IMG/VR virus record: IMGVR_UViG_2531839440_000002
Direction: 5' to 3' (one strand)
Origin: a virus
Taxonomy: Duplodnaviria > Heunggongvirae > Uroviricota > Caudoviricetes
DNA length: 27,296 nucleotides
Positions 4,752-26,712 of the stretch are shown here, piece by piece. The notes beneath the pieces were generated by a model, which saw only the letters and a list, made by a program, of their open reading frames with translations, was not told the origin of the DNA and did no database searches. Position 1 is the first letter of the stretch; each line of letters begins with the position of its first letter. Both the position numbers and the translations under genes were made by a program.

Positions 4752-4999
4752 ACAGCTCCCCGTTTATTATTTATCTCCTCAGCCAGCCGCTGTGCTTTCA
4801 GGGGATTTCGGATAACAGAAAGGCCGGGAAATACCCAGCCTCGCTTCGTAACGGAGTAGACGAAAGTGATCGTGCCTATAAGTGGCTTCACAACAAAGCA
4901 AAGGTATCCCCTGAACATGTCGGCAGCATTGTTACGGCTACTGGTGGAGTTGTGAAGGCGTACCAGATTCGCCCGGATCTTCCGAAGTTGTTTCCACAC
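4724..4999 (-). CDS. Hypothetical protein; C-terminal part resembles lambda orf60a, N-terminal part differs (possible deletion junction)
   Basis: C-terminal ...TFVYSVTKRGWVFPGLSVIRNPLKAQRLAEEINNKRGAVCTKHLPLS matches my recollection of lambda orf60a; in lambda exo follows, here it does not. Confidence 0.3.
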   Translation of the reverse strand: MWKQLRKIRANLVRLHNSTSSRNNAADMFRGYLCFVVKPLIGTITFVYSVTKRGWVFPGLSVIRNPLKAQRLAEEINNKRGAVCTKHLPLS

Positions 5000-8003: not shown

Positions 8004-8885
8004 CTACTTGTCTTTTTTAATATGATCAATCTCATCATTAAGACATTTATCTATTTTTTTTATTAACACATTAATTTCTTCGGTGTTTTGGAGTTGAGTT
8101 GTCTTAGAAACAAAAACTCGAATAAAGAATTTAACATAGTGATAGGGTTGAAGTACATCGTTATACTTACATAAATCATTTATTGTATACTTGCCGCCTG
8201 TTTCTTTTTTTATTATTTTAGCTTGACTTGTATCGATATCTTTAAAGTTATCTTCAATCTGAAAATCAAGAACCCATTCATCTTCTTTTAAATTATCCTC
8301 AATGATTTTGTTGATTTTCTTAGATATATTTTGTTTATATTTTTTGTATCTGTTGTCGGAAATGTTAACATTAGAAAACGTGTGTTTTTTTTCATATATT
8401 TTTTTCCAAACATTTCTATCAACAATATCTTGAATTATAGCTTGAGAATTTTTATCTAATGTGTTTTTAAGAGTGTTTTCTAAAAACGTTTTGTCTGGGT
8501 TTTCACGATAAAAGTGTTTGATGGACTCAATGAGAGTGTTTTTAGATTTTAAAGAGACAACATCATCAGTTTTTTTTCTAGAACACGCTTTGTTAAGCAT
8601 CGCAGATAGTGCACGATTGGTCTTATGAAAATAAACTTGACTATAAAGCCCACTTCTTGCATTGGCAAATTCTAGTATTGAATCCATACCACTTTCTTTA
8701 TATGCCAGGTAAACACTATTTTCAACTTTCACAGGAATAAATGACATTAATAATCGTCCATAATCATAAATCCCATATTTAACGCCGGAGAAGTAGCTAT
8801 CTCTAAGTAGGTAGTCCATTCTGTCCGCATCTATAGGTGAAGATGATATGATTGAACCTAATAAAGGATATACATTTACTCCCTC
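8004..8885 (-). pseudogene. HD-domain phosphohydrolase (dGTPase/SAMHD1-like), C-terminal fragment displaced by IS1
   Basis: Frame open from 8885 to stop at 8004; contains DADRMDYLLRDSYFSG motif; in frame with the N-terminal fragment once IS1 and one duplication copy are removed. Confidence 0.75.
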
Positions 8886-8940
8886 GGTGATGCTGCCAAC
8901 TTACTGATTTAGTGTATGATGGTGTTTTTGAGGTGCTCCA

Positions 8941-9216
8941 GTGGCTTCTGTTTCTATCAGCTGTCCCTCCTGTTCAGCTACTGACGGGGTGGTGCGTAAC
9001 GGCAAAAGCACTGCCGGACATCAGCGCTATCTCTGCTCTCACTGCCGTAAAACATGGCAACTGCAGTTCACTTACACCGCTTCTCAACCCGGTACGCACC
9101 AGAAAATCATTGATATGGCCATGAATGGCGTTGGATGCCGGGCAACAGCCCGCATTATGGGCGTTGGCCTCAACACGATTTTACGTCACTTAAAAAACTC
9201 AGGCCGCAGTCGGTAA
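8941..9216 (+). CDS. insA: IS1 InsA
   Basis: 91-aa [43 protein letters not shown]..., GTG start. Confidence 0.9.
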
Positions 9217-9638
9217 CCTCGCGCATACAGCCGGGCAGTGACGTCATCGTCTGCGCGGAAATGGACGAACAGTGGGGCTATGTCGGGGCTAAATCGCGCC
9301 AGCGCTGGCTGTTTTACGCGTATGACAGGCTCCGGAAGACGGTTGTTGCGCACGTATTCGGTGAACGCACTATGGCGACGCTGGGGCGTCTTATGAGCCT
9401 GCTGTCACCCTTTGACGTGGTGATATGGATGACGGATGGCTGGCCGCTGTATGAATCCCGCCTGAAGGGAAAGCTGCACGTAATCAGCAAGCGATATACG
9501 CAGCGAATTGAGCGGCATAACCTGAATCTGAGGCAGCACCTGGCACGGCTGGGACGGAAGTCGCTGTCGTTCTCAAAATCGGTGGAGCTGCATGACAAAG
9601 TCATCGGGCATTATCTGAACATAAAACACTATCAATAA
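9135..9638 (+). CDS. insB: IS1 InsB reading frame (transposase made as InsAB' by frameshifting)
   Basis: 167-aa ORF ...[44 protein letters not shown]...; overlaps insA. Confidence 0.85.
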
Positions 9639-9653
9639 GTTGGAGTCATTACC

Positions 9654-10328
9654 TACTCCCTCAATGTTATTTTTAAAATCATATCTTTTATCAACAATTT
9701 TTATAATGCTTTCTGGATTAATAGCCGCTATGTTTTCTTTATAGACATCGTCGTCATTTGATTTATCTTGGGCTTCATTTTTTAATTCTTCAATAATTTC
9801 TTTAATAAAAATACATGATACTTGTTCGTGGGTTAACTTGTCATTATCACTTAAAGATATAATCTTATCGTATTGTTTATTTCCTTCAGTTTTGCATTTT
9901 TCTTTGAAATCTTTTACGGATATTGCAAAACTATCGAATTGGTGGGCAAGTGGGCCATGCCCAACATCGTGTAACAATGCTGCAATACGTAACTCCTGTA
10001 TAAGACTTGAAGGCATTTTTTTTATATCTAAATATAGATCAATGCCCATATTTTTTCGATTGTAAATTAGTGCATTTAAATCAATATTTTTTAATATTTC
10101 ATACGATAAATGCATTACACCGACAGAGTGTTCAAAGCGAGAGTGCATTGCAGAAGGAAATACTTTATATAGAAACGTGTTCTGCCTGATATCTCGTAGT
10201 CGTTGGAATAAAGGATGGTCAATTATCTTTTTTTCTAGCTTAGTTATTCGAATCACTCCATGTATGGGATCTAAAAACTTCCCCAGAAGTAAGTCTTCAA
10301 AGTTCTCAAGTTTGTTTTTGTTTGTCAT
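9654..10328 (-). pseudogene. HD-domain phosphohydrolase (dGTPase/SAMHD1-like), N-terminal fragment interrupted by IS1
   Basis: ATG at 10326-10328; 225 codons up to the IS1 boundary; motifs HSRFEHSVGVMHLS and LLHDVGHGPLAH; the listed ORF 9573-10328 reads 26 codons into IS1 before stopping. Confidence 0.75.
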
Positions 10329-10687: not shown

Positions 10688-12190
10688 TTAAATTGCATCT
10701 GCAAACTCTGGGATTTTTCGCTCAAGTATGATTGATGAGTTGCTGTTGTCGCTTTTTTTATTTTCATGATTACGAATAGCCAATGACTCATTAAAGTCTT
10801 TTGCGACTGCTGTCTCAATAAATTCAATTTCTGAATCAGAGTGTTTTTTAACAGCTTCTTTGATCTCATCCAGAGTAACATAGAAAAACTCTTTTCTACG
10901 ATTTACAAGATTGACTCTCTTTTTATCGAAGACATCATGTAGTTCTTTTTCTAATGATGGAGCGTCCTCCGAATAAATCATGGCATGCACATCAAAAATA
11001 AAAGGAACAGATGCATCACCAAGCTCATTTACACGGTCTTGTGGATCAAGACGTCGTGTCATGCCTATTTTATAAACATTCTCCCCAAAAGAACCTATGT
11101 TCGAAATAATATAAACATGACCTTGTTTGGTTTGTTGTGCCATGGATAATGCTCTTTGATGCTTTGATTCAGCCTGCGACAAACTCTGTTCTAGTTCGGC
11201 AATGCGATTTTCGAGGCGCTGCTTCATGTCACCAGTAACTTTTTCCATTTCCTTTCTTGCAGCTTCAATTGCTTTTTTATAACGGCGCTCTTCTGCCTCT
11301 GCGTCTTGCATGGCCTTTTCTATTTCTCGTTGTGCACGCTCCTCCTCTCTCATTTGTGCCCTTATTTCTGCCTGTTCTTCTTTTTCTTTCTGTTTTTGCT
11401 CACGATATTCATGGGTAAGCCACAACTCCTCAAGTTTTTTATTAAGGTATTTAGTATTTATATATATGTGATTTTGCTCGTTTAGTTTATTTATGGCCTC
11501 AAATGCCTTTGTGATGCGTTCTTCCATTTTAGTGATATTTTTCCACGTGCAATTACTAATTGCAGCATCACATTCATTATTAAATGCTCTAGTAGTTAGC
11601 CTAATATTTCTGTCTGTCATTTTTTTACCCTCTGCTCGAGAGCCTTCAACAGTCCATTGGGTTGTGCAATATACTGCACCAGAGTGGGTTTTATCCCGCA
11701 GCATTAATTTCTGTTCATCCCTGATGGATTTTATTTTGTTTTTAAATTGCTCTGAATCTTCAAAATTAAAATGAGGTTCGTAAAATCCTAGTTCGGCTAG
11801 TTCAACATCTTCTGAATAAATAGAAATTTGCTTTACTAACTTATCATATATTTCTTTCTTCTCTTTATAAGTTCTTCTTAGTTCTTGGATTTGTTTATTG
11901 ATACCATCCATTTTTTCAATGGTGTTTGTTAGTTCATTATTGGCATTTTCTTTTACTTTTTGGGACTCTTCTTTTATAATGGAGCATTCTTGCTCTGTTT
12001 TCTCAATAAGCTTCTTACATTCCTCTTCCATATTAAAATAATCTGCAAAGCGAGATTTGTATTCTTCATTTTTTTGATTGCTATCACTTAATTCTAATTG
12101 TATTTTTTTGATGCGTTTGATTGCAGCTATATATAGAACAAGAACAACCAATAAAAATATGATTGCAAGTAATAGTGGAGTTTGAGTCAT
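10688..12190 (-). CDS. Membrane-anchored coiled-coil protein with DUF4041-like central region and C-terminal T5orf172 (GIY-YIG-like) domain; candidate defence protein
   Basis: 500 aa; N-terminal helix PLLLAIIFLLVVLVLYIAAI; long K/E-rich heptad segments; C-terminal GHVYIISNIGSFGENVYKIGMTRRLDPQDRVNELGDASVPFIFDVHAMIY...; AT-rich. Confidence 0.8.
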   Translation of the reverse strand: MTQTPLLLAIIFLLVVLVLYIAAIKRIKKIQLELSDSNQKNEEYKSRFADYFNMEEECKKLIEKTEQECSIIKEESQKVKENANNELTNTIEKMDGINKQIQELRRTYKEKKEIYDKLVKQISIYSEDVELAELGFYEPHFNFEDSEQFKNKIKSIRDEQKLMLRDKTHSGAVYCTTQWTVEGSRAEGKKMTDRNIRLTTRAFNNECDAAISNCTWKNITKMEERITKAFEAINKLNEQNHIYINTKYLNKKLEELWLTHEYREQKQKEKEEQAEIRAQMREEERAQREIEKAMQDAEAEERRYKKAIEAARKEMEKVTGDMKQRLENRIAELEQSLSQAESKHQRALSMAQQTKQGHVYIISNIGSFGENVYKIGMTRRLDPQDRVNELGDASVPFIFDVHAMIYSEDAPSLEKELHDVFDKKRVNLVNRRKEFFYVTLDEIKEAVKKHSDSEIEFIETAVAKDFNESLAIRNHENKKSDNSNSSIILERKIPEFADAI

Positions 12191-13525: not shown

Positions 13526-13884
13526 ATACCTACAATATCACATTACCCTGGCCGCCGAGCAATAATCGCTATTACCGCCATAATCGCGGGCGCACGCACA
13601 TCAGCGCAGAGGGGCAGGCATACCGCGAAAACGTCGCCCGAATCATTAAAAACGCAATGCTGGATATCGGCCTGGCTATGCCTGTGAAAATCCGCATTGA
13701 GTGTCACATGCCGGATCGCCGTCGCCGTGACCTGGATAATCTACAAAAGGCCGCTTTTGACGCACTCACCAAAGCAGGTTTCTGGTTGGATGATGCTCAG
13801 GTCGTTGATTACCGCGTTGTGAAGATGCCGGTTGTCAAAGGTGGAAAGCTGGAACTGACCATCACTGAACAGGGAGATGAATGA
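13522..13884 (+). CDS. rusA: RusA Holliday-junction resolvase
   Basis: 120-aa [45 protein letters not shown]...[10 protein letters not shown], recalled RusA sequence. Confidence 0.85.
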
Positions 13885-14021
13885 TGTTTGAGTTTTATAT
13901 GGCAGAACTTCTTCGCCACCGCTGGATGCGCCTGCGCTTATATCGTTTCCCCGGTTCTGTTTTGACCGATTACCGAATACTGAAGAATTACGCCAAAACA
14001 CTGACAGGAGCAGGAGTATGA
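13881..14021 (+). CDS. ylcG: YlcG-like small protein (46 aa)
   Basis: [46 protein letters not shown]; overlaps rusA stop; below ORF-track cutoff. Confidence 0.5.
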
Positions 14022-14106
14022 AGTCAGAGATAACAATCAACTAATACTGTTTTGTTGATTTTTGCTTGTAATTGGCGTTCTGGTCTGAGTTTTGTGGAGT
14101 AAGTTG

Positions 14107-14484
14107 ATGCGTGATATTCAGATGGTTCTTGAGCGTTGGGGAGCGTGGGCGGCTAATAATCATGAAGATGTGACCTGGTCGTCCATTGCCGCCGGTTTTA
14201 AGGGATTAATTCCTTCAAAAGTAAAATCTCGCCCACAATGTTGTGACGATGACGCGATGATCATTTGCGGGTGCATGGCCCGTCTGAAAAAGAACAACAG
14301 CGATTTGCATGATTTATTGGTGGACTATTATGTCGGCGGCATGACTTTTATGGCGCTTGCACGTAAGCATGGGCGATCTGATTGTTGGGTTGGCAGGATG
14401 CTCCAGAAAGCTGAGGGCGTAGTGGAGGGTATGCTGATGGTGTTGGATCTCCGATTGGAGATGGATGCTGATTGTTCGAAATAA
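14107..14484 (+). CDS. Late-gene antiterminator Q (phage 82 / DLP12 QuuD-type)
   Basis: ATG at 14107 preceded by GGAG; [36 protein letters not shown]...; the ORF-track start at 14092 is a TTG. Confidence 0.75.
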
Positions 14485-14584
14485 TTAAAGGAAAAGTTGC
14501 TGTCTGATTCTCATTAGTCTAACATTTTAAATGTTGGAATCGCAACGTAGTTATTATCATATAACAGCTTGTTTCCTGATTTAG

Positions 14585-14611
14585 CCAGCCTCCCCAAAGG
14601 CTGGTTTTTTT
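14585..14611 (+). terminator. Rho-independent terminator about 100 nt after Q (tR'-like)
   Basis: Stem CCAGCCT / AGGCTGG, loop CCCCAA, followed by a run of seven T on the + strand. Confidence 0.5.
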
Positions 14612-14639
14612 CTAATAAGTATTATTTCGGGTAGGGATT

Positions 14640-15111
14640 TTATTGTTTAACCCATAATAATTCATTGACATTGAATCCCAACTTTTGAGCGGTTCGCACA
14701 TAGTCTGCTTTTACTTTATCTGGAATAGTTGGGGTCCTTGCCAGAATCCATAGGTATTCTCTGTTCGGACCACTGACAAGAGCATACTTATACTCATCAT
14801 CCAGTTTGATTACATTATAGCCACCATAGAAGGGGCCAAAAAACGAAACCTTCAACGCTGCAGTTTTAGTATCTCCAGTAAAGTATGCTTTACCTTCGCT
14901 CTCGCTCCATTTATTTTTCGTTGGATCGTATCCACGGTTAAGTACACGAATCCCTCCGTCGTTCCGTTTTCCATAAGTAGCGCTGACCTGTTCCAGACCA
15001 CGTTCGAATCGGTTCTCGAGGCGAGCTATTTCATACCACTTTCCGAGGTAGCGGTTGGCGTCAAAATTTGTAATCGGCTGCACACCTTTAGGTGGTGTCG
15101 GGACCTTACAT
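14640..15111 (-). pseudogene. Blc-type bacterial lipocalin, main body separated from its start and signal peptide by an IS66-family insertion
   Basis: NFDANRYLGKWYEIARLENRFERGLEQVSATY...KVSFFGPFYGGYNVI matches recalled Blc; the reported TTG start at 15120-15122 lies inside the IS terminal repeat. Confidence 0.8.
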
Positions 15112-15141
15112 GTAAGCGTCAACGGAGCACCGTATTGACGC

Positions 15142-16754
15142 TTATTTATTGGTGAGTACTACGTTCCATGGCAGGAGTTCGTCAACACGGTTGGAGGGCC
15201 ATTCCGGCAGTACGCTCAGAATATGGCGCAGATACGCTTCCGGATCGATACCGTTCAGACGGCAGGTGCCGATCAGCCCGTACAGCAGTGCTCCACGCTC
15301 GCCGCCGTGATCGCTACCGAAGAACACGTAATTTTTCTTTCCGAGACAGACTGCACGAAGCGCTCTTTCCGCTGTGTTATTGTCCACCTCCGCCAGACCG
15401 TCATCACTGTAATAACAGAGGGCGTCCCACTGATTCAGTACATAGCTGAACGCTTCACCCAGTCTGGATTTTTTCGACAGCGTGCCATTCTTCTCCACCA
15501 TCCATTCATGCAGCGACGTCAGTAACGCTTTGCTTCGCTGCTGCCTGGCTGCAAGACGCTCTGACTCTGGTAATCCCCGTATTTCATCCTCGATGGCGTA
15601 CAGTTCACTGATTCGCTTCAGGGCTTCTTCTGCCGTCGCACTTTTGCTGCTGATGTATACATCGTGGATTTTTCTCCGGGCATGAGCCCAGCACGCAACT
15701 TCTGTCAGCGCACTACCTTCACGTTCTGCACTGAACAGCCTGTCATAACCTGTGAACGCATCCGCCTGCAGGATACCCCGGAAGGGGCGGAGGTGTTGCT
15801 CCGGGTGTTTCCCCTGCCGGTTCGATGAGTACGCGAACCAGACCGCCGGAGGAGATGACGAACCCGCATTGCGATCATCCCGGACATACGTCCAGATGCG
15901 CCCTGTTTTCGTCTTTTTCAGGCCCGGTGCCAGTACCTTTACCGGTGTGTCGTCAGTGTGAAGCTTGCGGGTATTCATCACATAACGGTACAGGGCATCA
16001 TTCAGCGGCGTCATTAACTGGCAGCACGCGTCAACCCAGTTGGAGAGTAATGCACGGCTCAGTTCGACACCCTGTCGGGCAAAGATTTCACTCTGACGAT
16101 ACAGTGGCAGGTGTTCGCAGTATTTTCCCGTTAACACGCGGGCAAGTAATCCGGGGCCCGCGATACCACGCTCTATCGGGCGGGACGGCGCCGGTGCTTC
16201 AACGATGCAGTCACATTTTGTACAGGCTTTTTTACCCGTTCTGTGCGGATCACTTTCAGGGCGCTGCTCACCAGTTCCAGTTGTTCTGCGCTGACTTCCC
16301 CCAGATAATCCAGCTCACCGCCACACTCCGGGCAACAGCTTTCTTCAGGCTCCAGGCGGTATATTTCACGGGGAAGGTGTGCCGGTAACGGACGACGATG
16401 GCGCGACTGTCGCAACTGGCGGGGAACCAGCGGGTCATCCTCACGCCCACTGTAACGATCGCTTTCCTGCTCGCGTTGTTTCAGCAGGGCTTCAGCCTGT
16501 TCAACCTCACGACGCAGTTTTTCAGAACGGGTTCCGAACAGCATCCGGCGCAGTTTTTCTATCTGAGCCCGCAGATGCTCTATTTCTCGCTCATCTTCTT
16601 CGATCTTTTCTTCGGCACGTGCCAGTGCAGAGCGCAGGAAGGCCTCCGTCTCTTCAACCAGACTCAGTTGCTGGTCTTTCTGACGGAGGGCTTCAGCCTG
16701 CTCAGAGAGCAGCCTTTCCAGCTCAGCGATGCGAATGAGGTATTTCTGACTCAT
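15142..16754 (-). pseudogene. IS66-family transposase TnpC, split into two reading frames by a frameshift
   Basis: N-terminal ORF 16173-16754 (coiled-coil plus CxxC zinc-finger region) and C-terminal ORF 15142-16137 (DDE region); span length 1613 is not a multiple of 3. Confidence 0.75.
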
Positions 16755-16784
16755 GGCCGTTTTTATAATCCGGCCCGGCGTTTT

Positions 16785-17135
16785 TTACAACATTGTCAGT
16801 GCGTTAAGGCGGGATGTTTTTGGCTGACGCCAGTCCAGCTTATCGAGGAGCATTGCCAGTTGCGAGCGGGTAATGGATATCTTACCGTCACGCACCGCAG
16901 GCCAGATAAACTGACCTTCCTCAAGGCGTTTGGTGAACAGGCACAGACCATCAGCATCAGCCCACAGGATTTTAATCGTGTCTCCCCGTCGGCCACGGAA
17001 GATAAACAGGTGACCGGAGAAGGGGTTATCATCCAGCACATGCTGTATCTGCTCCCCCAGACCGTTGAAGGATTTACGCATATCAGTAACGCCGGCAACG
17101 AGCCAGATACGGGTACCTGATGGGAGTGAAATCAT
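16785..17135 (-). CDS. IS66-family TnpB (orf2)
   Basis: 116-aa ORF MISLPSGTRIWLVAGVTDMRKSFNGLGEQIQHVLDDNPFSGHLFIFRGRRGDTIKILWAD... Confidence 0.85.
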   Translation of the reverse strand: MISLPSGTRIWLVAGVTDMRKSFNGLGEQIQHVLDDNPFSGHLFIFRGRRGDTIKILWADADGLCLFTKRLEEGQFIWPAVRDGKISITRSQLAMLLDKLDWRQPKTSRLNALTML

Positions 17136-17566
17136 CGTCCCCTCCCGGTCAGCTCACGGATCAACACCGTGAGCAGCTCTGGTGAAGGATTTTCCAGCAT
17201 CATTTTACCGTAATGGAATTCCGCATGGCAGGAAGCTGCACAAGCAACTGATAATGCCTCCGGAGCAGGAGCATCTGTAGCACAGCGCGGGGTGTCGATA
17301 AGTTCCACTGGAACCAGAGTCGGAGAGGCCGGAAAAGATTGTGATACTGTAGGGCCTACAATAGTTGGAGGCATTCTACGGGAAATACGTCCTTCTCTTT
17401 GCCAGAGGCGTAGCCATTTAAAAATCAGGTTGTTATCAACGCCATGTTCCCGGGCCAGTTGTGCAACATTGGCATTTGGTTTCGAAGCCAGTTCAACCAT
17501 ATGAAGTTTAAATTCATTAGAAAATATCCGGCGGGTTCCGGAGCGCCAGTCTGTAGGTTTATCCAT
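17132..17566 (-). CDS. IS66-family TnpA (orf1)
   Basis: ATG at 17564-17566 (track start 17569 is TTG); MDKPTDWRSGTRRIFSNEFKLHMVELASKPNANVAQLAREHGV...; overlaps tnpB start. Confidence 0.8.
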   Translation of the reverse strand: MDKPTDWRSGTRRIFSNEFKLHMVELASKPNANVAQLAREHGVDNNLIFKWLRLWQREGRISRRMPPTIVGPTVSQSFPASPTLVPVELIDTPRCATDAPAPEALSVACAASCHAEFHYGKMMLENPSPELLTVLIRELTGRGR

Positions 17567-17651
17567 CAATAGAACTCCGTCTAATTTAGAAGGAGCTCTA
17601 ATTTAGTCTGCAAGGAGCAGGTGTTACAGACGGCATTGGCTTTACGCTTAC

Positions 17652-17712
17652 CCTTACATGCTATAAGAGTGAAAGAGAGTGCAATGCCAGTCAACACAGG
17701 CCATAACTTCAT
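17652..17712 (-). pseudogene. N-terminal fragment of the lipocalin gene (signal peptide with lipobox), cut off by the IS66-family insertion
   Basis: ATG at 17710-17712; MKLWPVLTGIALSFTLIAC then runs into the duplication; joined to 15111 downwards gives ...LIACKVPTPPKG... in frame. Confidence 0.55.
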
Positions 17713-17904
17713 AATAAATCCTGTACTTTTGATAGTTGAGAGTAAGTATGAAAGATAGATGATTACGACCGATCACTTAAAGAACTTTCATACTATATTA
17801 GGAATAGTCCATAACAGAAAAATTGTCAGTGATGACGCCAGAAAGGCAATTTATTCCGTGCACTACACAGTTTATGTGTTAATGAATTAGTCAAGGGGGA
17901 GGAT

Positions 17905-18864
17905 ATGATAAAAAAACCTGTGATTGGAATCAGCGGTTGTCTGGCCGGTTCTGCTGTTCGTTTTGATGGTGGTCACAAAAGAGCTGACTTTTTAATGGAC
18001 AAATTAGTGGAATGGGTAACATTCAGACCAGTATGTCCGGAAATGGCTATAGGGCTGCCAGTTCCGCGTCCTGCTCTACGTCTTGTGCGCTCGACGCAAG
18101 GAAATATACGGATGTGTTTCAGCCACGACCAGAATGAGGATGTGACAGAGAGAATGACAGAGTTTAGTCGTTCTTATATGGACAAATTAAAGGATGTATC
18201 GGGGTTTGTGGTTTGTGCTAAATCTCCCAGCTGTGGCATGGAGCGCGTGCGTGTCTATGATGAAAATGGTAATCGAGGTCGTAAAGATGGAGTGGGACTA
18301 TTTACGAGCACTTTGATGGAAAAGTTTTCCTGGCTACCGGTTGAAGAGGATGGGCGATTACATGATCCAGTGCTTCGTGAGAATTTTGTTGAAAGAGTTT
18401 TTGCTTTGCATGAGCTCAATCACCTTTACAAGGAGAAATTATCAAGAAGAGAGTTATTAGCTTTTCATAGTCGTTATAAGCTTCAGTTGTTGGCGCATAG
18501 TCAGGCAGGCTATAAAGATATGGGACCATTTGTGGCTGCAATACACGAGTGGGCGGACCTTGAATCATACTTTGAGGTGTATCGTGATAAGCTGATGGCG
18601 ATTCTCAGAAAACCTGCATCACGTAAAAATCACACGAATGTGCTGATGCATATACAGGGGTATTTTAGTAACTACTTAAGTACACGCCAGCGTAAAGAGT
18701 TGAGCGAGGTTATACTTAACTATCGTTCTGGCACATTACCTCTTCTTGCGCCGTTGACTCTGCTGAAGCATTATCTGGGTGAGTATCCTAATGATTACTT
18801 GCTTACACAGAATTACTTCGATCCCTATCCGGACGAACTGGCTCTAAGACTGATGGTAAATTAA
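17905..18864 (+). CDS. DUF523 (TudS-like) / DUF1722 fusion protein
   Basis: 319-aa ORF; N-terminus MIKKPVIGISGCLAGSAVRFDGG with further conserved Cys (RPVCPE, CAKSPSCG) resembles DUF523; C-terminal half resembles DUF1722; GGGGGAGG SD upstream. Confidence 0.65.
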   Translation: MIKKPVIGISGCLAGSAVRFDGGHKRADFLMDKLVEWVTFRPVCPEMAIGLPVPRPALRLVRSTQGNIRMCFSHDQNEDVTERMTEFSRSYMDKLKDVSGFVVCAKSPSCGMERVRVYDENGNRGRKDGVGLFTSTLMEKFSWLPVEEDGRLHDPVLRENFVERVFALHELNHLYKEKLSRRELLAFHSRYKLQLLAHSQAGYKDMGPFVAAIHEWADLESYFEVYRDKLMAILRKPASRKNHTNVLMHIQGYFSNYLSTRQRKELSEVILNYRSGTLPLLAPLTLLKHYLGEYPNDYLLTQNYFDPYPDELALRLMVN

Positions 18865-19020
18865 TTGTATGCGATATCATCCAAAAGGATGAGTTCCTGC
18901 ATGCAGGATATTTACAATCGTAAAAACTACACTATGATACCCAGAGTGTCAGTTTGTATAAAAACTCTGTTTACGCTGAAGAAACCATTGAGATGCAACT
19001 TAAAGTTGGTGTATTTGCCC

Positions 19021-19926
19021 CTATATTTCCAGACACCTGTTATCACTTAACCCATTACTGGCCCGCTGCCGTAGATATTCCCGTGGCGAGCGATAACCCA
19101 GTGCACTATGCGGATGCCATTCGTTATAATGCTCGAACGCCTCTGCAAGATTCTTTGCTGCCGTTAACCCGTCTGGTTTGGGCATGATACTGATGTAATC
19201 ACGCTTTATCGTTTTCACGAAGCTCTCTGCTATGCCGTTACTCTCCGGACTCCGCACCGCCGTGTTCTTCGGTTCAAGTCCCAACATCCGAGCGAACTGG
19301 CGTGTTTCATTAGCCCGGTAGCATGAACCATTATCCGTCAGCCACTCCACTGGAGATGTCGGAAGCTCGCTGCCGAAGCGGCGTTCCACCGCTCCCAGCA
19401 TGACGTCCTGTACTGTTTCACTGTCGAAGCCGCCCGTAGTGACCGCCCAGTGCAGTGCCTCACGGTCACAGCAGTCCAGCGCGAACGTGACTCGCAGTTT
19501 TTCTCCGTTATCACAGCGGAACTCGAACCCGTCAGAGCACCATCGTTGATTGCTTTCTTTCACGGCCACTTTGCCAGTATGTGCCCGTTTCGATGGCGGT
19601 ACAGCGGTTTTTCGCTCAAGCAACAGCGCATTCTGGCGCATGATCCGGTAAACACGTTTGGCATTGATAGCAGGCATACCATCAAGTTCGGCCTGTCTGC
19701 GAAGCAGCGCCCATACCCGACGATAACCATACGTGGGCAGCTCTCCGATAACATGGTGTATACGGAGAAGCACATCCGTATCATCTGAGTGACGGCTGCG
19801 GCGACCATCTTTCCAGTCATCGGTTCGTCTGAGAATGACGTGCAACTGCGCACGCGACACCCGGAGACAACGGCTGACTAAGCTTACTCCCCATCCCCGG
19901 GCAATAAGGGCGCGTGCGCTATCCAC
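19021..19926 (-). CDS. insD: IS2 transposase OrfB
   Basis: 301-aa ORF with DDE-type region ...WCSDGFEF...DNGSCY... Confidence 0.9.
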
Positions 19927-20249
19927 TTTTTTGCACGCCCGTATTCAACGGCTTCTTTAAGGAGTTCATTTTCCATCGTTTTTTTGCCGAGCAGGCGCTG
20001 GAGTTCTTTAATCTGCTTCATGGCAGCAGCAAGTTCAGAGGCAGGAACGACCTGCTCTCCTGCGGCCACAGCAGTAAGACTTCCCTCCTGGTATTGCTTG
20101 CGCCAGAGAAATAACTGGCTGGCTGCCACACCGTGTTGCCGGGCAACAAGGGAGACCGTCATTCCCGGTTCAAAGCTCTGCTGAACAATAGCGATCTTTT
20201 CCTGTGTAGTACGCCGTCTGCGTTTCTCCGGCCCTAAGACATCAATCAT
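19884..20249 (-). CDS. insC: IS2 OrfA (helix-turn-helix)
   Basis: 121 aa from [47 protein letters not shown]...; the track ORF begins 15 codons upstream. Confidence 0.85.
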
Positions 20250-20551
20250 CTGTTCTCCAATGACTAGTCTAAAAACTAGTATTAAGACTATCACTTATTT
20301 AAGTGATATTGATTGTCTGGAGATTCAGGGGGCCAGTCTAGTTGGTAAACATGCCAGTCAAAATATATAATATTATGATTCCACGCAGCTATATATAATA
20401 TAACAGATTGGTTTAATAATTTGTCTTTGTGAGTTAAATACATAATTTTATACTTGTGATGCAATGAGATTTTCCTTATTGTTGAACTGGCGAATATTGA
20501 TTTTCCACCTATACTTACCTGGTGTAACCCCAATGATATCAGGTGGATAAT

Positions 20552-21277
20552 ATGCCATACATATGTTCTATCATTTTGGTGTTGAACTCGTTTGATGTCC
20601 GAATTGGTAAAGAAGATATTTTATTTAAAAAAGGAAGTGCTGTTCTCATTGATTACAATTTAAAAGATTTTTTTTCATCAAATATAGATCATGCAATGAT
20701 CGTAGATGTTGAAGAGAAAACAGTTAATGATTTCTTTAAAAGCAACACACTCTCACCTTTTTCTGTAAGAAGGTTTTATCCGGCATACTTGATGGTGGAA
20801 TGTGAAGATTTTTCATTGTTAAAGAACTTGATTGCATGCTTGAATTGTGATGGCAGAACTGTGGATTTTGTTAGAAATCAAATATCACTTGCATGTCTTG
20901 CTATCTTATCTTCAGAGAAAATAGTGCAAAGTTTTTTATTTGGATGTCTTAATAGTTTAGGAAGTAAAGTTAAGGCTATTATTCACACGGATATATCTGC
21001 AGCATGGAGACTTTGTGATATATCTTCAAGACTGTATCTGAGTGAAAGTCTGTTAAAAAGAAAATTAAAGCACGAAGGCTTATCATTTAGTAAGTTAATT
21101 CTTGAAGAGCGAATGGTGATGGCGGAAAGGTTATTAAGCTACAATTTATATTCTGTTGGAAAAGTTACTGAGATATGCGGTTATGAAAACACGTCATATT
21201 TTGTAAGTGTTTTCAGAAGATATTTTGGTGTTCCTCCCCATCAATATTCATCAAGATTTTTTTTAGAAAAGACATGA
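20552..21277 (+). CDS. AraC/XylS-family transcriptional regulator (prophage cargo)
   Basis: C-terminal helix-turn-helix region ...KVTEICGYENTSYFVSVFRRYFGVPPHQY typical of AraC family; AT-rich; ATG at 20552 after AGGTGG (track start 20543 is GTG). Confidence 0.75.
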   Translation: MPYICSIILVLNSFDVRIGKEDILFKKGSAVLIDYNLKDFFSSNIDHAMIVDVEEKTVNDFFKSNTLSPFSVRRFYPAYLMVECEDFSLLKNLIACLNCDGRTVDFVRNQISLACLAILSSEKIVQSFLFGCLNSLGSKVKAIIHTDISAAWRLCDISSRLYLSESLLKRKLKHEGLSFSKLILEERMVMAERLLSYNLYSVGKVTEICGYENTSYFVSVFRRYFGVPPHQYSSRFFLEKT

Positions 21278-21343
21278 TGTAACGTGATGCGTTTTAATGA
21301 TTTTGTAATTTTCGTATTTGATAATTGTATGATGCTTTCAGCT

Positions 21344-21375
21344 ACGCCAGAATAATCGCTGGCGTTTTTCTTTTT
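21344..21375 (+). terminator. Rho-independent terminator after the AraC-family gene
   Basis: Stem CGCCAG / CTGGCG, loop AATAATCG, followed by TTTTTCTTTTT. Confidence 0.45.
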
Positions 21376-21470
21376 GAATAGATGTTCAAGCCTTACGCTA
21401 ATGTAACTTCTATACCTTTCCTCTTCGTTCCGAACCGTGTACACCATCCGTTATTTGCGGAGGTGAGGCT

Positions 21471-21686
21471 ATGAAATCCATGGATAAGTTAACAACGGGT
21501 GTCGCCTATGGCACCTCAGCAGGTAGTGCCGGTTACTGGTTTTTACAGCTGCTCGATAAAGTCACGCCCTCACAGTGGGCAGCAATAGGTGTGCTGGGTA
21601 GCCTGGTATTTGGCCTGCTGACGTACCTGACAAACCTTTATTTCAAGATTAAAGAAGATAAGCGCAAGGCTGCGAGAGGTGAATAA
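21471..21686 (+). CDS. Class II holin / pinholin (phage 21 S21-type) with dual-start motif MKSM
   Basis: 71 aa [26 protein letters not shown]...; two TM segments; GGAGGTGAGG SD; resembles recalled S21/EssD. Confidence 0.85.
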
Positions 21687-22183
21687 TGCCTCCATCATTA
21701 CGAAAAGCCGTTGCTGCTGCTATTGGTGGCGGGGCTATTGCTATAGCATCTGTGCTAATCACTGGCCCAAGTGGTAACGATGGTCTGGAGGGTGTGAGAC
21801 ATAATCCTTACAAAGACATAGTTGGTGTATGGACTGTATGTTACGGGCATACAGGAAAAGACATCATTCCTGGTAAAACGTATACCGAAGCAGAGTGCAA
21901 AGCCCTCCTGAATAAAGACCTTGCCACTGTCGCCAGACAAATTAACCCGTACATCAAAGTCGATATACCGGAAACAACGCGCGGCGCTCTTTACTCGTTC
22001 GTCTACAACGTGGGTGCTGGCAATTTCAGAACATCGACGCTTCTTCGCAAAATAAACCAGGGTGATATTAAAGGCGCATGTGATCAGCTACGGCGCTGGA
22101 CATACGCTGGCGGTAATCAATGGAAAGGACTGATGACTCGCCGTGAGATTGAGCGTGAAGTCTGTTTGTGGGGGAAACAATGA
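21686..22183 (+). CDS. Endolysin (lysozyme), SAR-endolysin type
   Basis: 165 aa; N-terminal [18 protein letters not shown] signal-anchor-release-like segment; catalytic region ...[23 protein letters not shown]...; start overlaps holin stop (TAATG). Confidence 0.85.
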
Positions 22184-25278: not shown

Positions 25279-26712
25279 ATGGAAGTCAACAAAAAGCAGC
25301 TGGCTGACATTTTCGGCGCGAGTATCCGTACCATTCAGAACTGGCAGGAGCAGGGAATGCCCGTTCTGCGGGGTGGTGGGAAGGGTAATGAGGTGCTTTA
25401 TGATTCTGCCGCCGTCATAAAATGGTATGCCGAAAGGGATGCTGAAATTGAGAACGAAAAGCTGCGCCGGGAAGTTGAAGAACTGCGGCAGGCCAGCGAG
25501 ACAGATCTCCAGCTACCTTCTGCCCGTAAGGTGAATGGTAAGGCGCTTTCAGCGGATATAACACTGACACCGAAAGATATTGGTACGCTTAACTCAACAA
25601 CTATGTCATTCAGCGGTGGTGCTGGTTGGTTCAAATTAGCAACGGTAACCATGCCGCAGGCGAGTTCTGTTGTTTCAATTACGTTGATTGGTGGGGCTGG
25701 ATATAACGTCGGTTCACCTCAACAGGCAGGTATATCTGAACTTGTTTTGCGTGCAGGTAATGGTAATCCGAAGGGGATTACTGGTGCTTTATGGCAGCGC
25801 ACATCGGCAGGGTTTACAAATTTTGCCTGGGTCAATACATCTGGTGATACTTACGATATTTACGTTGCAATCGGAAATTATGCGACTGGTGTAAATATTC
25901 AATGGGATTATACCAGTAATGCCAGCGTAACGATTCATACGTCACCAGCATATTCTGCTAATAAGCCGGAAGGGTTAACGGACGGTACAGTTTATTCACT
26001 CTATACGCCATCAGAGCAGTTTTATCCGCCTGGCGCACCAATCCCGTGGCCATCGGATACCGTTCCGTCTGGTTATGCCCTGATGCAGGGGCAGACTTTT
26101 GACAAATCTGCCTACCCGAAACTTGCAGTCGCTTATCCGTCAGGCGTGATCCCTGATATGCGTGGCTGGACGATTAAGGGCAAGCCCGCCAGTGGTCGTG
26201 CCGTATTGTCTCAGGAGCAGGACGGCATTAAATCGCACACCCACAGCGCCAGCGCATCCAGTACGGATTTGGGTACGAAAACCACATCGTCGTTTGATTA
26301 CGGCACTAAATCCACGAATAACACCGGGGCGCATACGCACAGTCTGAGCGGCTCTACAAGCTCGGCCGGAGCACACTCGCACGTTGATGGTCGCAGGTTT
26401 AATACAAGCACTTTTAAAGACACCTATCAGTATGGTTCTACAGCTGTCGGAAGTAACTCATACCAGGTACAAGGGGTGGTTGGTCTGGGCATTGGCACGA
26501 TGGCGAATACGAACTCTGCTGGCGCGCATACCCACTCACTGTCCGGCACTGCTGCAAGCGCAGGTGCACACGCACATACTGTCGGTATTGGTGCACACAC
26601 GCACTCCGTTGCGATTGGTTCACATGGACACACCATCACCGTTAACGCTGCTGGTAACGCGGAAAACACCGTCAAAAACATCGCATTTAACTATATTGTG
26701 AGGCTTGCATAA
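25279..26712 (+). pseudogene. In-frame fusion of terminase small subunit Nu1 N-terminus (about 78 aa) to the C-terminal about 400 aa of side tail fiber Stf; deletion scar
   Basis: N-terminus [74 protein letters not shown] matches recalled lambda Nu1; junction near 25513; C-terminus has tail-fiber HxH repeats and ends [11 protein letters not shown] before tfa. Confidence 0.75.

What the first reader, a model, noticed from the sequence alone, without database searches (positions are those of the whole stretch)
17905..18864. DUF523 (TudS-like) / DUF1722 fusion gene as prophage cargo
The Cys pattern (GISGCLAG, RPVCPE, CAKSPSCG) resembles DUF523 [4Fe-4S] thiouracil desulfidase-type enzymes, fused to a DUF1722-like half. 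A nucleobase-modifying enzyme on a prophage could act on modified nucleotides or phage-related metabolism.
Basis: partly seen in the sequence, partly recalled or inferred. Interest (0 to 1): 0.45.

Follow-up and report, generated by a model that had tools for sequence, protein, structure and literature searches.

The report
Prophage-borne RudS tRNA 4-thiouridine desulfidase gene
The gene is an intact copy of RudS, an already characterised iron-sulfur enzyme that removes the UV-sensitive sulfur mark (4-thiouridine) from transfer RNA, carried as cargo in a decayed lambda-like prophage of E. coli; it is correctly spotted but not new.

Summary
Window 17905-18864 (+) is an intact 319-aa ORF with a full-length DUF523/TudS domain (PF04463, E 3e-40) fused to a full-length DUF1722 domain (PF08349, E 2e-40).

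This architecture is the RudS family (Jamontas et al., NAR 2024), [4Fe-4S] desulfidases that convert tRNA 4-thiouridine back to uridine. The protein is 93.4% identical to RudS_vir (Escherichia phage 1H12 gp66). That paper expressed RudS_vir in E. coli and found lowered tRNA s4U. All residues shown there to be essential are present: Cys12/44/110, Glu46, Arg55, Ser107/109.

"Prophage cargo" is also right. The gene lies between antiterminator Q and the holin of a lambdoid prophage at att-lambda. The order Q, blc(-), rudS, AraC-like HTH, holin recurs in 69 of 80 viral contigs and in isolated phages.

Three things are specific to this window:
- The prophage is defective: the immunity region is deleted, and IS1, IS66 and IS2 have inserted.
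- IS66 sits 253 bp upstream of rudS and IS2 145 bp downstream.
- The ORF itself is untouched and under purifying selection (dN/dS 0.10).

One point worth keeping: about 21% of complete E. coli genomes carry this gene, although reviews state that E. coli lacks RudS. Already known; low interest.

The parts
17905..18864 (+). rudS ORF, 319 aa plus stop: TudS-DUF1722 fusion, predicted tRNA 4-thiouridine desulfidase
   Evidence: ORF. Pfam PF04463 + PF08349. 93.4% identical to RudS_vir (phage 1H12 gp66) and 99.7% to phage IdasGreatGrand. Identical protein in E. coli 2018-11-3CC, WP_000592546.1.
17923..18351 (+). Catalytic TudS/DUF523 domain (aa 7-149) with predicted [4Fe-4S] ligands Cys12, Cys44, Cys110 and catalytic Glu46, Arg55, Ser107, Ser109
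   Evidence: Pfam. Residues read. At least 90% conserved across 137 diverse representatives. Profile alignment to TudS 6Z92. AF2 model matches TudS 6z96 at probability 1.00.
18478..18831 (+). DUF1722 domain (aa 192-309), all-helical, the tRNA-binding module of RudS; includes Ser239-Arg240, equivalent to RudS_KT Ser243-Arg244
   Evidence: Pfam. Helical in the AF2 model. S239/R240 invariant among close relatives. Role of the domain from PMC11417400.
17713..17904 (.). Intact 192-bp blc-rudS divergent intergenic region with the rudS ribosome-binding site; any gene-specific promoter would lie here (none demonstrated)
   Evidence: Alignment A3, mean column identity 96% across five copies that include the 92%-identical alleles. 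Spacing of 193 bp in 79 of 80 viral loci. Only a weak promoter-like match at 17736-17763.
17652..17712 (-). 5' fragment (first ~20 codons) of the lipocalin gene blc, cut off from the rest by IS66
   Evidence: sequence and mapping to uninterrupted L004.
15113..17651 (-). IS66-family element (2539 bp) inserted in blc, 253 bp upstream of the rudS ATG; 8-bp target duplication CCTTACAT; its tnpC is split into two ORFs
   Evidence: Junctions and duplication. ORFs. Colinearity with L004/L007.
14640..15112 (-). 3' part of blc (lipocalin, PF08212), disrupted by IS66
   Evidence: Pfam. Full-length 174-aa gene in L004/L002.
14092..14484 (+). Antiterminator Q gene (PF06530), immediately upstream of the cargo cassette
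   Evidence: Pfam. Annotation of homologous loci.
14497..14614 (+). Likely late promoter pR' (TTGCTG-17-TAACAT) and terminator tR' (hairpin 14583-14606 plus T-run); inferred from position only
   Evidence: Sequence. Terminator-like site. Assignment by analogy with lambdoid late regions (inference).
19010..20340 (-). IS2 (1331 bp), inserted 145 bp downstream of the rudS stop; 5-bp target duplication GTTGG
   Evidence: junctions. ORFs. Annotation of the same IS.
20543..21277 (+). AraC-family HTH gene (PF12833/PF00165; phrog_1450), the constant downstream neighbour of rudS in this cassette
21471..22183 (+). Holin (essD-like, ~21471-21686, position inferred from L004) and lysozyme (ORF 21686-22183): start of the lysis cassette that closes the Q-to-lysis cargo site
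   Evidence: Mapping to L004 annotation. ORF list. Synteny.

Best explanation
The ORF encodes RudS, a tRNA 'eraser' enzyme.

Mechanism, taken from the characterised family:
- The N-terminal TudS domain holds a [4Fe-4S] cluster on Cys12, Cys44 and Cys110.
- The free fourth iron binds the sulfur of 4-thiouridine at tRNA position 8.
- Glu46, oriented by Arg55 and stabilised by Ser107/Ser109, activates water to replace the sulfur with oxygen. Uridine is regenerated and sulfide released.
- The helical DUF1722 domain docks the tRNA.
- Less s4U means less UVA-induced s4U8-C13 cross-linking, and so a shorter near-UV growth delay.

The gene is a moron (accessory cargo) in the late region of lambdoid phages, in the slot between antiterminator Q and the holin. 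In an intact phage, Q-modified late transcription from pR' would read through it (inferred).

In this window the host prophage is defective. IS66 lies between pR' and rudS, and the cI/pR region is deleted. Expression here would therefore depend on a promoter in the conserved 192-bp upstream region. That promoter is inferred, not shown.
For: Domain architecture is full length on both halves.

The protein is 93.4% identical over all 319 residues to RudS_vir, phage 1H12 gp66. PMC11417400 reports that all six RudS proteins tested, RudS_vir included, lowered E. coli tRNA s4U by 4.7- to 26-fold. Stand-alone TudS and YbgA did not.

None of the 21 substitutions relative to RudS_vir touches Cys12/44/110, Glu46, Arg55, Ser107/109 or Ser239/Arg240. 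The catalytic and ligand residues are at least 90% conserved in 137 representatives at 35-55% identity, and they align with TudS Cys10/43/104.

The AF2 model has pLDDT 86, and its N-terminal domain matches TudS crystal structures at probability 1.00.

dN/dS is 0.10 against the 92%-identical allele.

Prophage context: ybhC | int xis ... O P ren ... Q | blc | rudS | HTH | holin lysozyme. The same cassette is present in isolated phages and in 69 of 80 IMG/VR loci.
Against: No activity, cofactor or expression data exist for this exact allele or strain.

In PMC11417400, RudS_vir desulfidated tRNA less than RudS_ST at a comparable protein level. It also gave the shortest lag on 4-thiouracil of the RudS proteins tested. 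Its substrate preference may therefore be broader than tRNA alone.

Two of the tRNA-contact residues defined in RudS_KT differ here: Tyr25 is Phe20 and Asn26 is Asp21. Y25F behaved like wild type in KT. N-to-D was not tested.

No convincing sigma-70 promoter is detected upstream. The prophage has also lost cI/pR, so the gene may be silent in this strain.
Confidence: 0.88

Rival explanations
1. It works mainly as a TudS-like salvage enzyme on free thiolated bases or nucleotides (4-thiouracil, 4-thio-UMP), not on tRNA. This is.
For: The catalytic domain is a bona fide TudS domain. Among the RudS proteins tested in PMC11417400, RudS_vir rescued a uracil auxotroph on 4-thiouracil with the shortest lag and had lower tRNA activity.
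Against: In the same paper no RudS supported growth the way stand-alone TudS did. Every RudS, RudS_vir included, reduced tRNA s4U, whereas stand-alone TudS did not. The DUF1722 tRNA-docking domain is full length, and the gene as a whole is under purifying selection.
Confidence: 0.07
2. In this particular genome the gene is a silent passenger: an intact but unexpressed relic of a dead prophage, with no current role.
For: The prophage has lost exo-bet-gam-kil-cI-pR in a 3.5-kb deletion at window 4876-4878, so Q has no known promoter. IS66 (2.5 kb, opposite orientation) separates pR' from rudS, and IS2 lies just downstream. The morphogenesis genes are deleted, leaving a Nu1/tail-fibre fusion ORF. 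No strong promoter is predicted upstream.
Against: The ORF, its RBS and the whole 192-bp upstream region are untouched by three nearby IS insertions. The gene DNA is 100% identical to the copy in strain TOK-001, and the protein is identical to that of strain 2018-11-3CC. dN/dS of 0.10 shows the gene is maintained by selection in the lineage. The upstream region is 96% identical on average across five copies that include the 92%-identical alleles.
Confidence: 0.3
3. It is simply an orthologue of the E. coli housekeeping protein YbgA, as the RefSeq name 'YbgA family protein' suggests.
For: The C-terminal half matches the YbgA equivalog model NF007549 (E 1.4e-56, residues 160-315).
Against: The score of 190.8 bits is below the curated cut-off of 237. 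K-12 YbgA is a stand-alone DUF1722 without the catalytic domain, and it had no effect on tRNA s4U in PMC11417400.
Confidence: 0.01

Closest known systems
RudS_vir (Escherichia phage 1H12 gp66, H3V29_gp66, NC_049947), characterised in Jamontas et al., Nucleic Acids Res 2024 (PMC11417400)
   Same: Same length (319 aa) and 93.4% identity. Same Cys12/Cys44/Cys110 numbering. Same genomic slot, Q - blc(-) - rudS - HTH - holin.
   Different: 21 conservative substitutions, none at functional residues. The window copy sits in a defective, IS-interrupted prophage rather than an infective phage.
RudS_KT (Pseudomonas putida PP_0741), the biochemically and mutationally characterised reference RudS
   Same: Same TudS-DUF1722 architecture. 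Equivalent cluster Cys, Glu, Arg, Ser-x-Ser and Ser-Arg tRNA-contact residues, with numbering offset by +5/+4.
   Different: Judged from the 35-55% identity of the diverse family representatives; PP_0741 itself was not aligned here. The chromosomal gene belongs to a light-inducible LitR/MerR-photolyase operon. The phage copy has no MerR regulator or photolyase neighbour. Tyr25 is Phe20 and Asn26 is Asp21.
RudS_ST / ORF319 (Salmonella LT2 STM1389) and chromosomal enterobacterial RudS (Citrobacter, Enterobacter, Klebsiella)
   Same: 319 aa and the same Cys positions. The Citrobacter, Enterobacter, Klebsiella and S. Derby relatives recovered here are 70-77% identical; LT2 ORF319 itself was not aligned.
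   Different: The chromosomal copies close a MerR-SnoaL-SDR-amine oxidase-DUF1365-CFA synthase-DUF2878-DUF3833 cluster. The phage cassette shares none of these neighbours, and its lipocalin is unrelated to the 175-aa ORF of that cluster.
TudS (stand-alone DUF523 thiouracil / 4-thio-UMP desulfidase, PDB 6Z92-6Z96)
   Same: Same catalytic fold and [4Fe-4S] ligand/acid-base constellation.
   Different: TudS is a single domain of about 150-166 aa acting on free bases or nucleotides. It does not lower tRNA s4U in vivo. The window protein carries the extra DUF1722 tRNA-binding domain.
YbgA (E. coli K-12 b0707, stand-alone DUF1722)
   Same: Homologous to the C-terminal half.
   Different: No catalytic domain and no effect on s4U. 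The window protein fails the YbgA equivalog cut-off.

Membership tests
RudS (TudS-DUF1722 tRNA s4U desulfidase) | N-terminal TudS/DUF523 domain | tested here: met
   PF04463 residues 7-149, full profile, E 3.1e-40. Fold match to TudS structures at probability 1.00.
RudS (TudS-DUF1722 tRNA s4U desulfidase) | C-terminal DUF1722 domain fused in the same polypeptide | tested here: met
   PF08349 residues 192-309, full profile, E 1.9e-40.
RudS (TudS-DUF1722 tRNA s4U desulfidase) | Three conserved Cys that ligate the [4Fe-4S] cluster (RudS_vir Cys12/44/110; TudS Cys10/43/104) | tested here: met
   Cys12, Cys44 and Cys110 are present. They are at least 90% conserved in 137 representatives and aligned to the TudS motifs SaCLlG / CPEV / SPSCG.
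RudS (TudS-DUF1722 tRNA s4U desulfidase) | Catalytic Glu, Arg and Ser-x-Ser (RudS_KT Glu51, Arg60, Ser111, Ser113) | tested here: met
   Glu46, Arg55, Ser107 and Ser109 are present and nearly invariant. Residue roles from PMC11417400.
RudS (TudS-DUF1722 tRNA s4U desulfidase) | tRNA-contact residues (RudS_KT Arg24-Tyr25-Asn26; Ser243-Arg244) | tested here: inconclusive
   Arg19, Ser239 and Arg240 are conserved. Tyr is replaced by Phe20 (Y25F was wild-type-like in KT) and Asn by Asp21 (effect unknown). The mapping is by numbering offset, not by a direct alignment to PP_0741.
RudS (TudS-DUF1722 tRNA s4U desulfidase) | Removes s4U from tRNA; contains a [4Fe-4S] cluster | not testable with these tools
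   The s4U reduction was shown for the 93.4%-identical RudS_vir in vivo, and the cluster requirement for RudS_KT (PMC11417400). Neither was shown for this allele.
Stand-alone TudS | Single-domain protein of about 150-170 aa acting on free thiouracil / 4-thio-UMP | tested here: not met
   319-aa two-domain protein. RudS proteins did not phenocopy TudS in the auxotroph assay.
YbgA (NCBIfam NF007549 equivalog) | Score above the curated cut-off of 237 bits; stand-alone DUF1722 | tested here: not met
   190.8 bits, covering only residues 160-315.
Light-responsive MerR/LitR-controlled RudS operon | Adjacent MerR-family regulator, photolyase or CFA/DUF3833 cluster | tested here: not met
   The neighbours are Q, blc, an AraC-type HTH gene and the lysis genes. 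The MerR cluster is seen only in the chromosomal relatives.
Lambdoid prophage moron (cargo between Q and the lysis cassette) | Located downstream of Q/pR' and upstream of the holin in a lambdoid (pro)phage; not needed for phage functions | tested here: met
   69 of 80 IMG/VR loci show Q+ blc- rudS+ HTH+ holin+ lysozyme+. The cassette occurs in different prophage backbones (att-lambda, Qin-like, Jouyvirus).

The most novel reading that the evidence does not exclude
Phage-borne RudS may be a late-operon, Q-dependent factor. It would be switched on when UV or SOS induces the prophage. By erasing host tRNA s4U8, it would stop the UVA component of sunlight from cross-linking tRNA, stalling translation and triggering the stringent response during virion production.

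Alternatively, a low constitutive level from its own promoter could give about one fifth of E. coli strains a prophage-conferred UVA tolerance.

Neither the phage role nor the strain-level phenotype has been tested. Reviews still state that E. coli lacks RudS.
Probability: 0.25. Interest if true: 0.5.

Novelty: already known. Interest (0 to 1): 0.2.

Why it matters
The enzyme family, its mechanism and even the phage version were published in 2024, so the gene itself teaches nothing new. Two modest practical points follow.

1. Annotation lags behind the literature. RefSeq calls the protein 'YbgA family protein', and PHROGs lists phrog_3275 as 'unknown function'. The catalytic identity is therefore hidden in thousands of genomes.

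2. The gene is in 1136 of 5426 complete E. coli genomes. PMC11417400 and a 2026 review (PMC13602947) both say E. coli lacks RudS. Strain-to-strain differences in UVA growth delay, solar disinfection or tRNA s4U levels could therefore be prophage-determined.

Why lambdoid phages keep a tRNA s4U eraser in their late region remains an open, testable question.

Tried and rejected
1. I tested whether the phage lipocalin (blc) next to rudS is a remnant of the chromosomal MerR-CFA-DUF3833-RudS cluster. BLASTP against the unannotated 175-aa ORF of that cluster found no similarity (best E 4.3). Rejected.

2. I looked for a riboswitch or other known RNA element around rudS. An Rfam E-value scan of 13800-21700 gave only two sub-threshold hits, both near the tR' hairpin. 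Nothing there.

3. I looked for a clear sigma-70 promoter or terminator flanking rudS. The number of consensus matches was about what shuffled sequence gives (15 found, 12.1 expected). No call can be made. By eye I saw no LexA box in the upstream region.

4. I tested whether RudS or its neighbours belong to a known defence system. PADLOC gave no hit for RudS, blc or the HTH protein.

5. The search for related loci with the diverse alignment A1 failed because no stretch was conserved enough. It was repeated successfully with A2.

6. A literature search for a link between phage, s4U, UVA and prophage induction found nothing relevant.

7. The source genome was not found. No complete E. coli genome covers 80% or more of the window (best 76%).

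Full report
**Observation**

The ORF list shows one ATG-started ORF of 319 codons at exactly 17905-18864 on the + strand. A strong ribosome-binding site, GGGGGAGG, ends 2 nt before the ATG.

Pfam finds two full-length domains:
- PF04463, 2-thiouracil desulfurase (the former DUF523): residues 7-149, profile 1-141 of 141, E 3.1e-40.
- PF08349, DUF1722: residues 192-309, profile 1-117 of 117, E 1.9e-40.

**What it is**

A TudS domain fused to DUF1722 defines the RudS family, described by Jamontas et al. (Nucleic Acids Res 2024, PMC11417400). RudS proteins are [4Fe-4S] desulfidases that convert 4-thiouridine (s4U) in tRNA back to uridine.

That paper tested six RudS genes. [quoted passage not shown] The window protein compares as follows:

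| Comparison | Identity |
|---|---|
| RudS_vir, phage 1H12 gp66 | 93.4% over all 319 residues |
| Phage IdasGreatGrand | 99.7% |
| E. coli 2018-11-3CC, WP_000592546.1 | identical |

All 21 differences from RudS_vir lie outside the functional residues.

RudS_KT mutagenesis defined the essential residues as Cys17/49/114, Glu51, Arg60 and Ser111/113, with tRNA contacts Arg24-Tyr25-Asn26 and Ser243-Arg244. Here the equivalents are:
- Cys12/44/110, Glu46, Arg55 and Ser107/109.
- Arg19-Phe20-Asp21 and Ser239-Arg240.

Supporting evidence for the catalytic domain:
- The cluster and catalytic residues are at least 90% conserved in 137 representatives sharing only 35-55% identity.
- A profile built from those representatives aligns SaC-LlG, CPEV, PR and SPSCG with the crystallised TudS, 6Z92 (E 5e-16).
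- An AlphaFold2 model (mean pLDDT 86, pTM 0.84) has an alpha/beta N-terminal domain. Its only significant PDB matches are the TudS structures (probability 1.00, TM-score normalised to target length (TMt) 0.66).
- The C-terminal domain is all-helical and has no solved relative.

The family is large. HMMER finds 6575 representatives at E ≤ 1e-3 among the 50%-identity clusters, 1170 of them at E ≤ 1e-30.

**How it most likely works**

The chemistry is established for the family and inferred for this allele. Three Cys hold the cluster. The unique iron binds the thione sulfur of s4U8. Glu46, positioned by Arg55 and Ser107/109, deprotonates water for attack at C4. Sulfide leaves through a [4Fe-5S] intermediate. 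DUF1722 docks the anticodon side of the tRNA.

In PMC11417400, all RudS proteins lowered E. coli tRNA s4U 4.7- to 26-fold, whereas stand-alone TudS and YbgA did not. RudS_KT expression also shortened the UVA-induced growth delay.

RudS_vir had comparatively lower tRNA activity and the shortest lag on 4-thiouracil. Some free-base activity therefore cannot be excluded.

**Context: prophage cargo is correct**

The window starts in ybhC and enters a lambdoid prophage at att-lambda. The gene order is:

int, xis, ... YdaT-like, O, P, ren, ... ybcN, ninE, rusA, Q (14092-14484), blc lipocalin (minus strand), rudS, an AraC-type HTH gene (20543-21277), holin, lysozyme (21686-22183), Rz, KilA-N, DUF1398, Nu1.

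The Q-to-holin slot is the classical cargo (moron) position of lambdoid phages. A promoter-like element (TTGCTG-17-TAACAT) and a hairpin plus T-run (14583-14606) directly after Q look like pR'/tR'. That assignment is inferred.

The cassette Q+ blc- rudS+ HTH+ holin+ lysozyme+ recurs widely:
- In the infective phages 1H12 and IdasGreatGrand.
- In prophages with different backbones, including a Qin-like one.
- Complete in 69 of 80 IMG/VR loci. The other 11 lack one or more of these genes; several of those loci end close to rudS.
- With a fixed 193-bp blc-rudS spacer in 79 of those 80 loci.

Between the two allele groups (92.3% nucleotide identity), dS is 0.30 and dN is 0.031, giving dN/dS 0.10. 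Phages therefore keep the gene under purifying selection.

**What is special in this window**

Mapping to uninterrupted relatives shows a decayed prophage (with annotation):

| Feature | Window coordinates | Detail |
|---|---|---|
| Deletion, 3.5 kb | junction at 4876-4878 | removes exo, bet, gam, kil, cI, pR and the 5' end of cro |
| IS1 | 8886-9653 | target duplication TACTCCCTC; splits an HD-domain gene |
| IS66-family element | 15113-17651 | target duplication CCTTACAT; inserted about 20 codons into blc, 253 bp upstream of the rudS ATG, transcribed away from rudS |
| IS2 | 19010-20340 | target duplication GTTGG; 145 bp after the rudS stop |
| Nu1/tail-fibre fusion ORF | 25279-26712 | marks loss of the morphogenesis genes |

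rudS, its RBS and the full 192-bp upstream region are intact. That region averages 96% column identity across five copies that include the 92%-identical alleles.

pR is gone and 2.5 kb of IS66 lies between pR' and rudS. Q-dependent expression is therefore unlikely in this strain. Expression, if any, must come from an undemonstrated promoter in 17713-17904, where only a weak consensus match was found. I give the 'silent passenger in this strain' reading about 0.3. It does not change what the gene encodes.

**Comparison with known relatives**

The nearest non-phage relatives are chromosomal RudS of Citrobacter, Enterobacter, Klebsiella and Salmonella, all 319 aa and 70-77% identical.

In Citrobacter the gene ends a MerR-SnoaL-SDR-amine oxidase-DUF1365-CFA synthase-DUF2878-DUF3833 cluster. 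The paper reports that RudS genes often sit in light-responsive operons under MerR-family regulators. The phage cassette has none of these neighbours, and its lipocalin is unrelated to the unannotated ORF of that cluster. Regulation has therefore been replaced by phage late control and/or the adjacent AraC-type regulator (inference).

The RefSeq label 'YbgA family protein' is misleading. The protein matches the YbgA equivalog model only over residues 160-315 and below its cut-off (190.8 vs 237 bits). K-12 YbgA also lacks the catalytic domain. PHROGs lists the family (phrog_3275) as of unknown function.

**Distribution**

The gene is present in 1136 of 5426 complete E. coli genomes, 1064 of them with at least 80% coverage. 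Nearly all copies are chromosomal, with a median of one copy per carrying genome. It is also in 137 IMG/VR contigs.

Both PMC11417400 and a 2026 review (PMC13602947) state that E. coli lacks RudS. That holds for the laboratory strains those papers worked with, but not for about a fifth of sequenced strains.

I found no paper addressing why a phage carries RudS.

**Verdict**

However, this is a known, named and experimentally characterised enzyme family, with a 93%-identical phage orthologue already tested. Novelty: already known. Interest: low (0.2).

The residual open question is what the phage or lysogen gains from it, for example protection of translation from UVA during UV-triggered induction, or prophage-conferred UVA tolerance. 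It is testable, and I rate it at about 0.25 probability and 0.5 interest if true.

Noticed in passing
window 10688-12190 (-): A 500-aa DUF4041/T5orf172 protein matches the PADLOC model PD-Lambda-1 almost end to end (E 1.5e-198). This is an anti-phage defence gene carried in the nin region of the same prophage.
   Followed up: partly
window 8004-10328 (-), with IS1 at 8886-9653: An HD-domain gene next to PD-Lambda-1 (515 aa when intact in strain 2018-11-3CC) is split by an IS1 insertion with 9-bp target duplication TACTCCCTC. It has no PADLOC hit.
   Followed up: partly
window 4876-4878: A deletion junction. Relative to strain 2018-11-3CC, 3.5 kb carrying exo, bet, gam, kil, the cI-type repressor, pR and the 5' end of cro is missing, so the prophage has no immunity region.
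   Followed up: partly
window 15142-16754 (-): The IS66 transposase (tnpC) is split into two ORFs of 331 and 193 aa, instead of the single gene of about 511 aa seen in strain TOK-001. This IS66 copy is probably inactive.
   Followed up: no
window 25279-26712 (+): A 477-aa ORF joins an N-terminal Nu1 terminase fragment to tail-collar and tail-fibre repeats. It is a fusion scar showing that the head and tail genes were deleted. E. coli 042 has a similar arrangement.
   Followed up: no
window 20543-21277 (+): An AraC-family HTH protein (phrog_1450, unknown function) always follows rudS in the cassette. Here IS2 separates it from its upstream region, and in E. coli 042 IS2 interrupts the gene itself. 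It may regulate the cassette.
   Followed up: partly
E. coli complete genomes (collection search): rudS is in 1136 of 5426 complete E. coli genomes, yet PMC11417400 and PMC13602947 state that E. coli lacks RudS. RefSeq names it 'YbgA family protein', which hides the catalytic domain.
   Followed up: yes
L011 8001-8960 and L012 3704-4663 (Salmonella relative P0030): In this Salmonella lineage the RudS gene sits between ttcA (PF01171, by position the tRNA 2-thiocytidine synthetase gene) and a DUF1367 gene of a kind usually found in prophages. The site corresponds, from my own knowledge, to the Rac attachment region of E. coli. It may be another prophage-remnant location; the adjacency to a tRNA thiolation gene could be coincidence.
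   Followed up: no
plasmid collection: RudS homologues at about 74% identity occur on 319 plasmid records, mostly large Klebsiella and Enterobacter plasmids and many of them conjugative, next to a DUF3833 gene. The chromosomal-type cluster is therefore also mobile.
   Followed up: no
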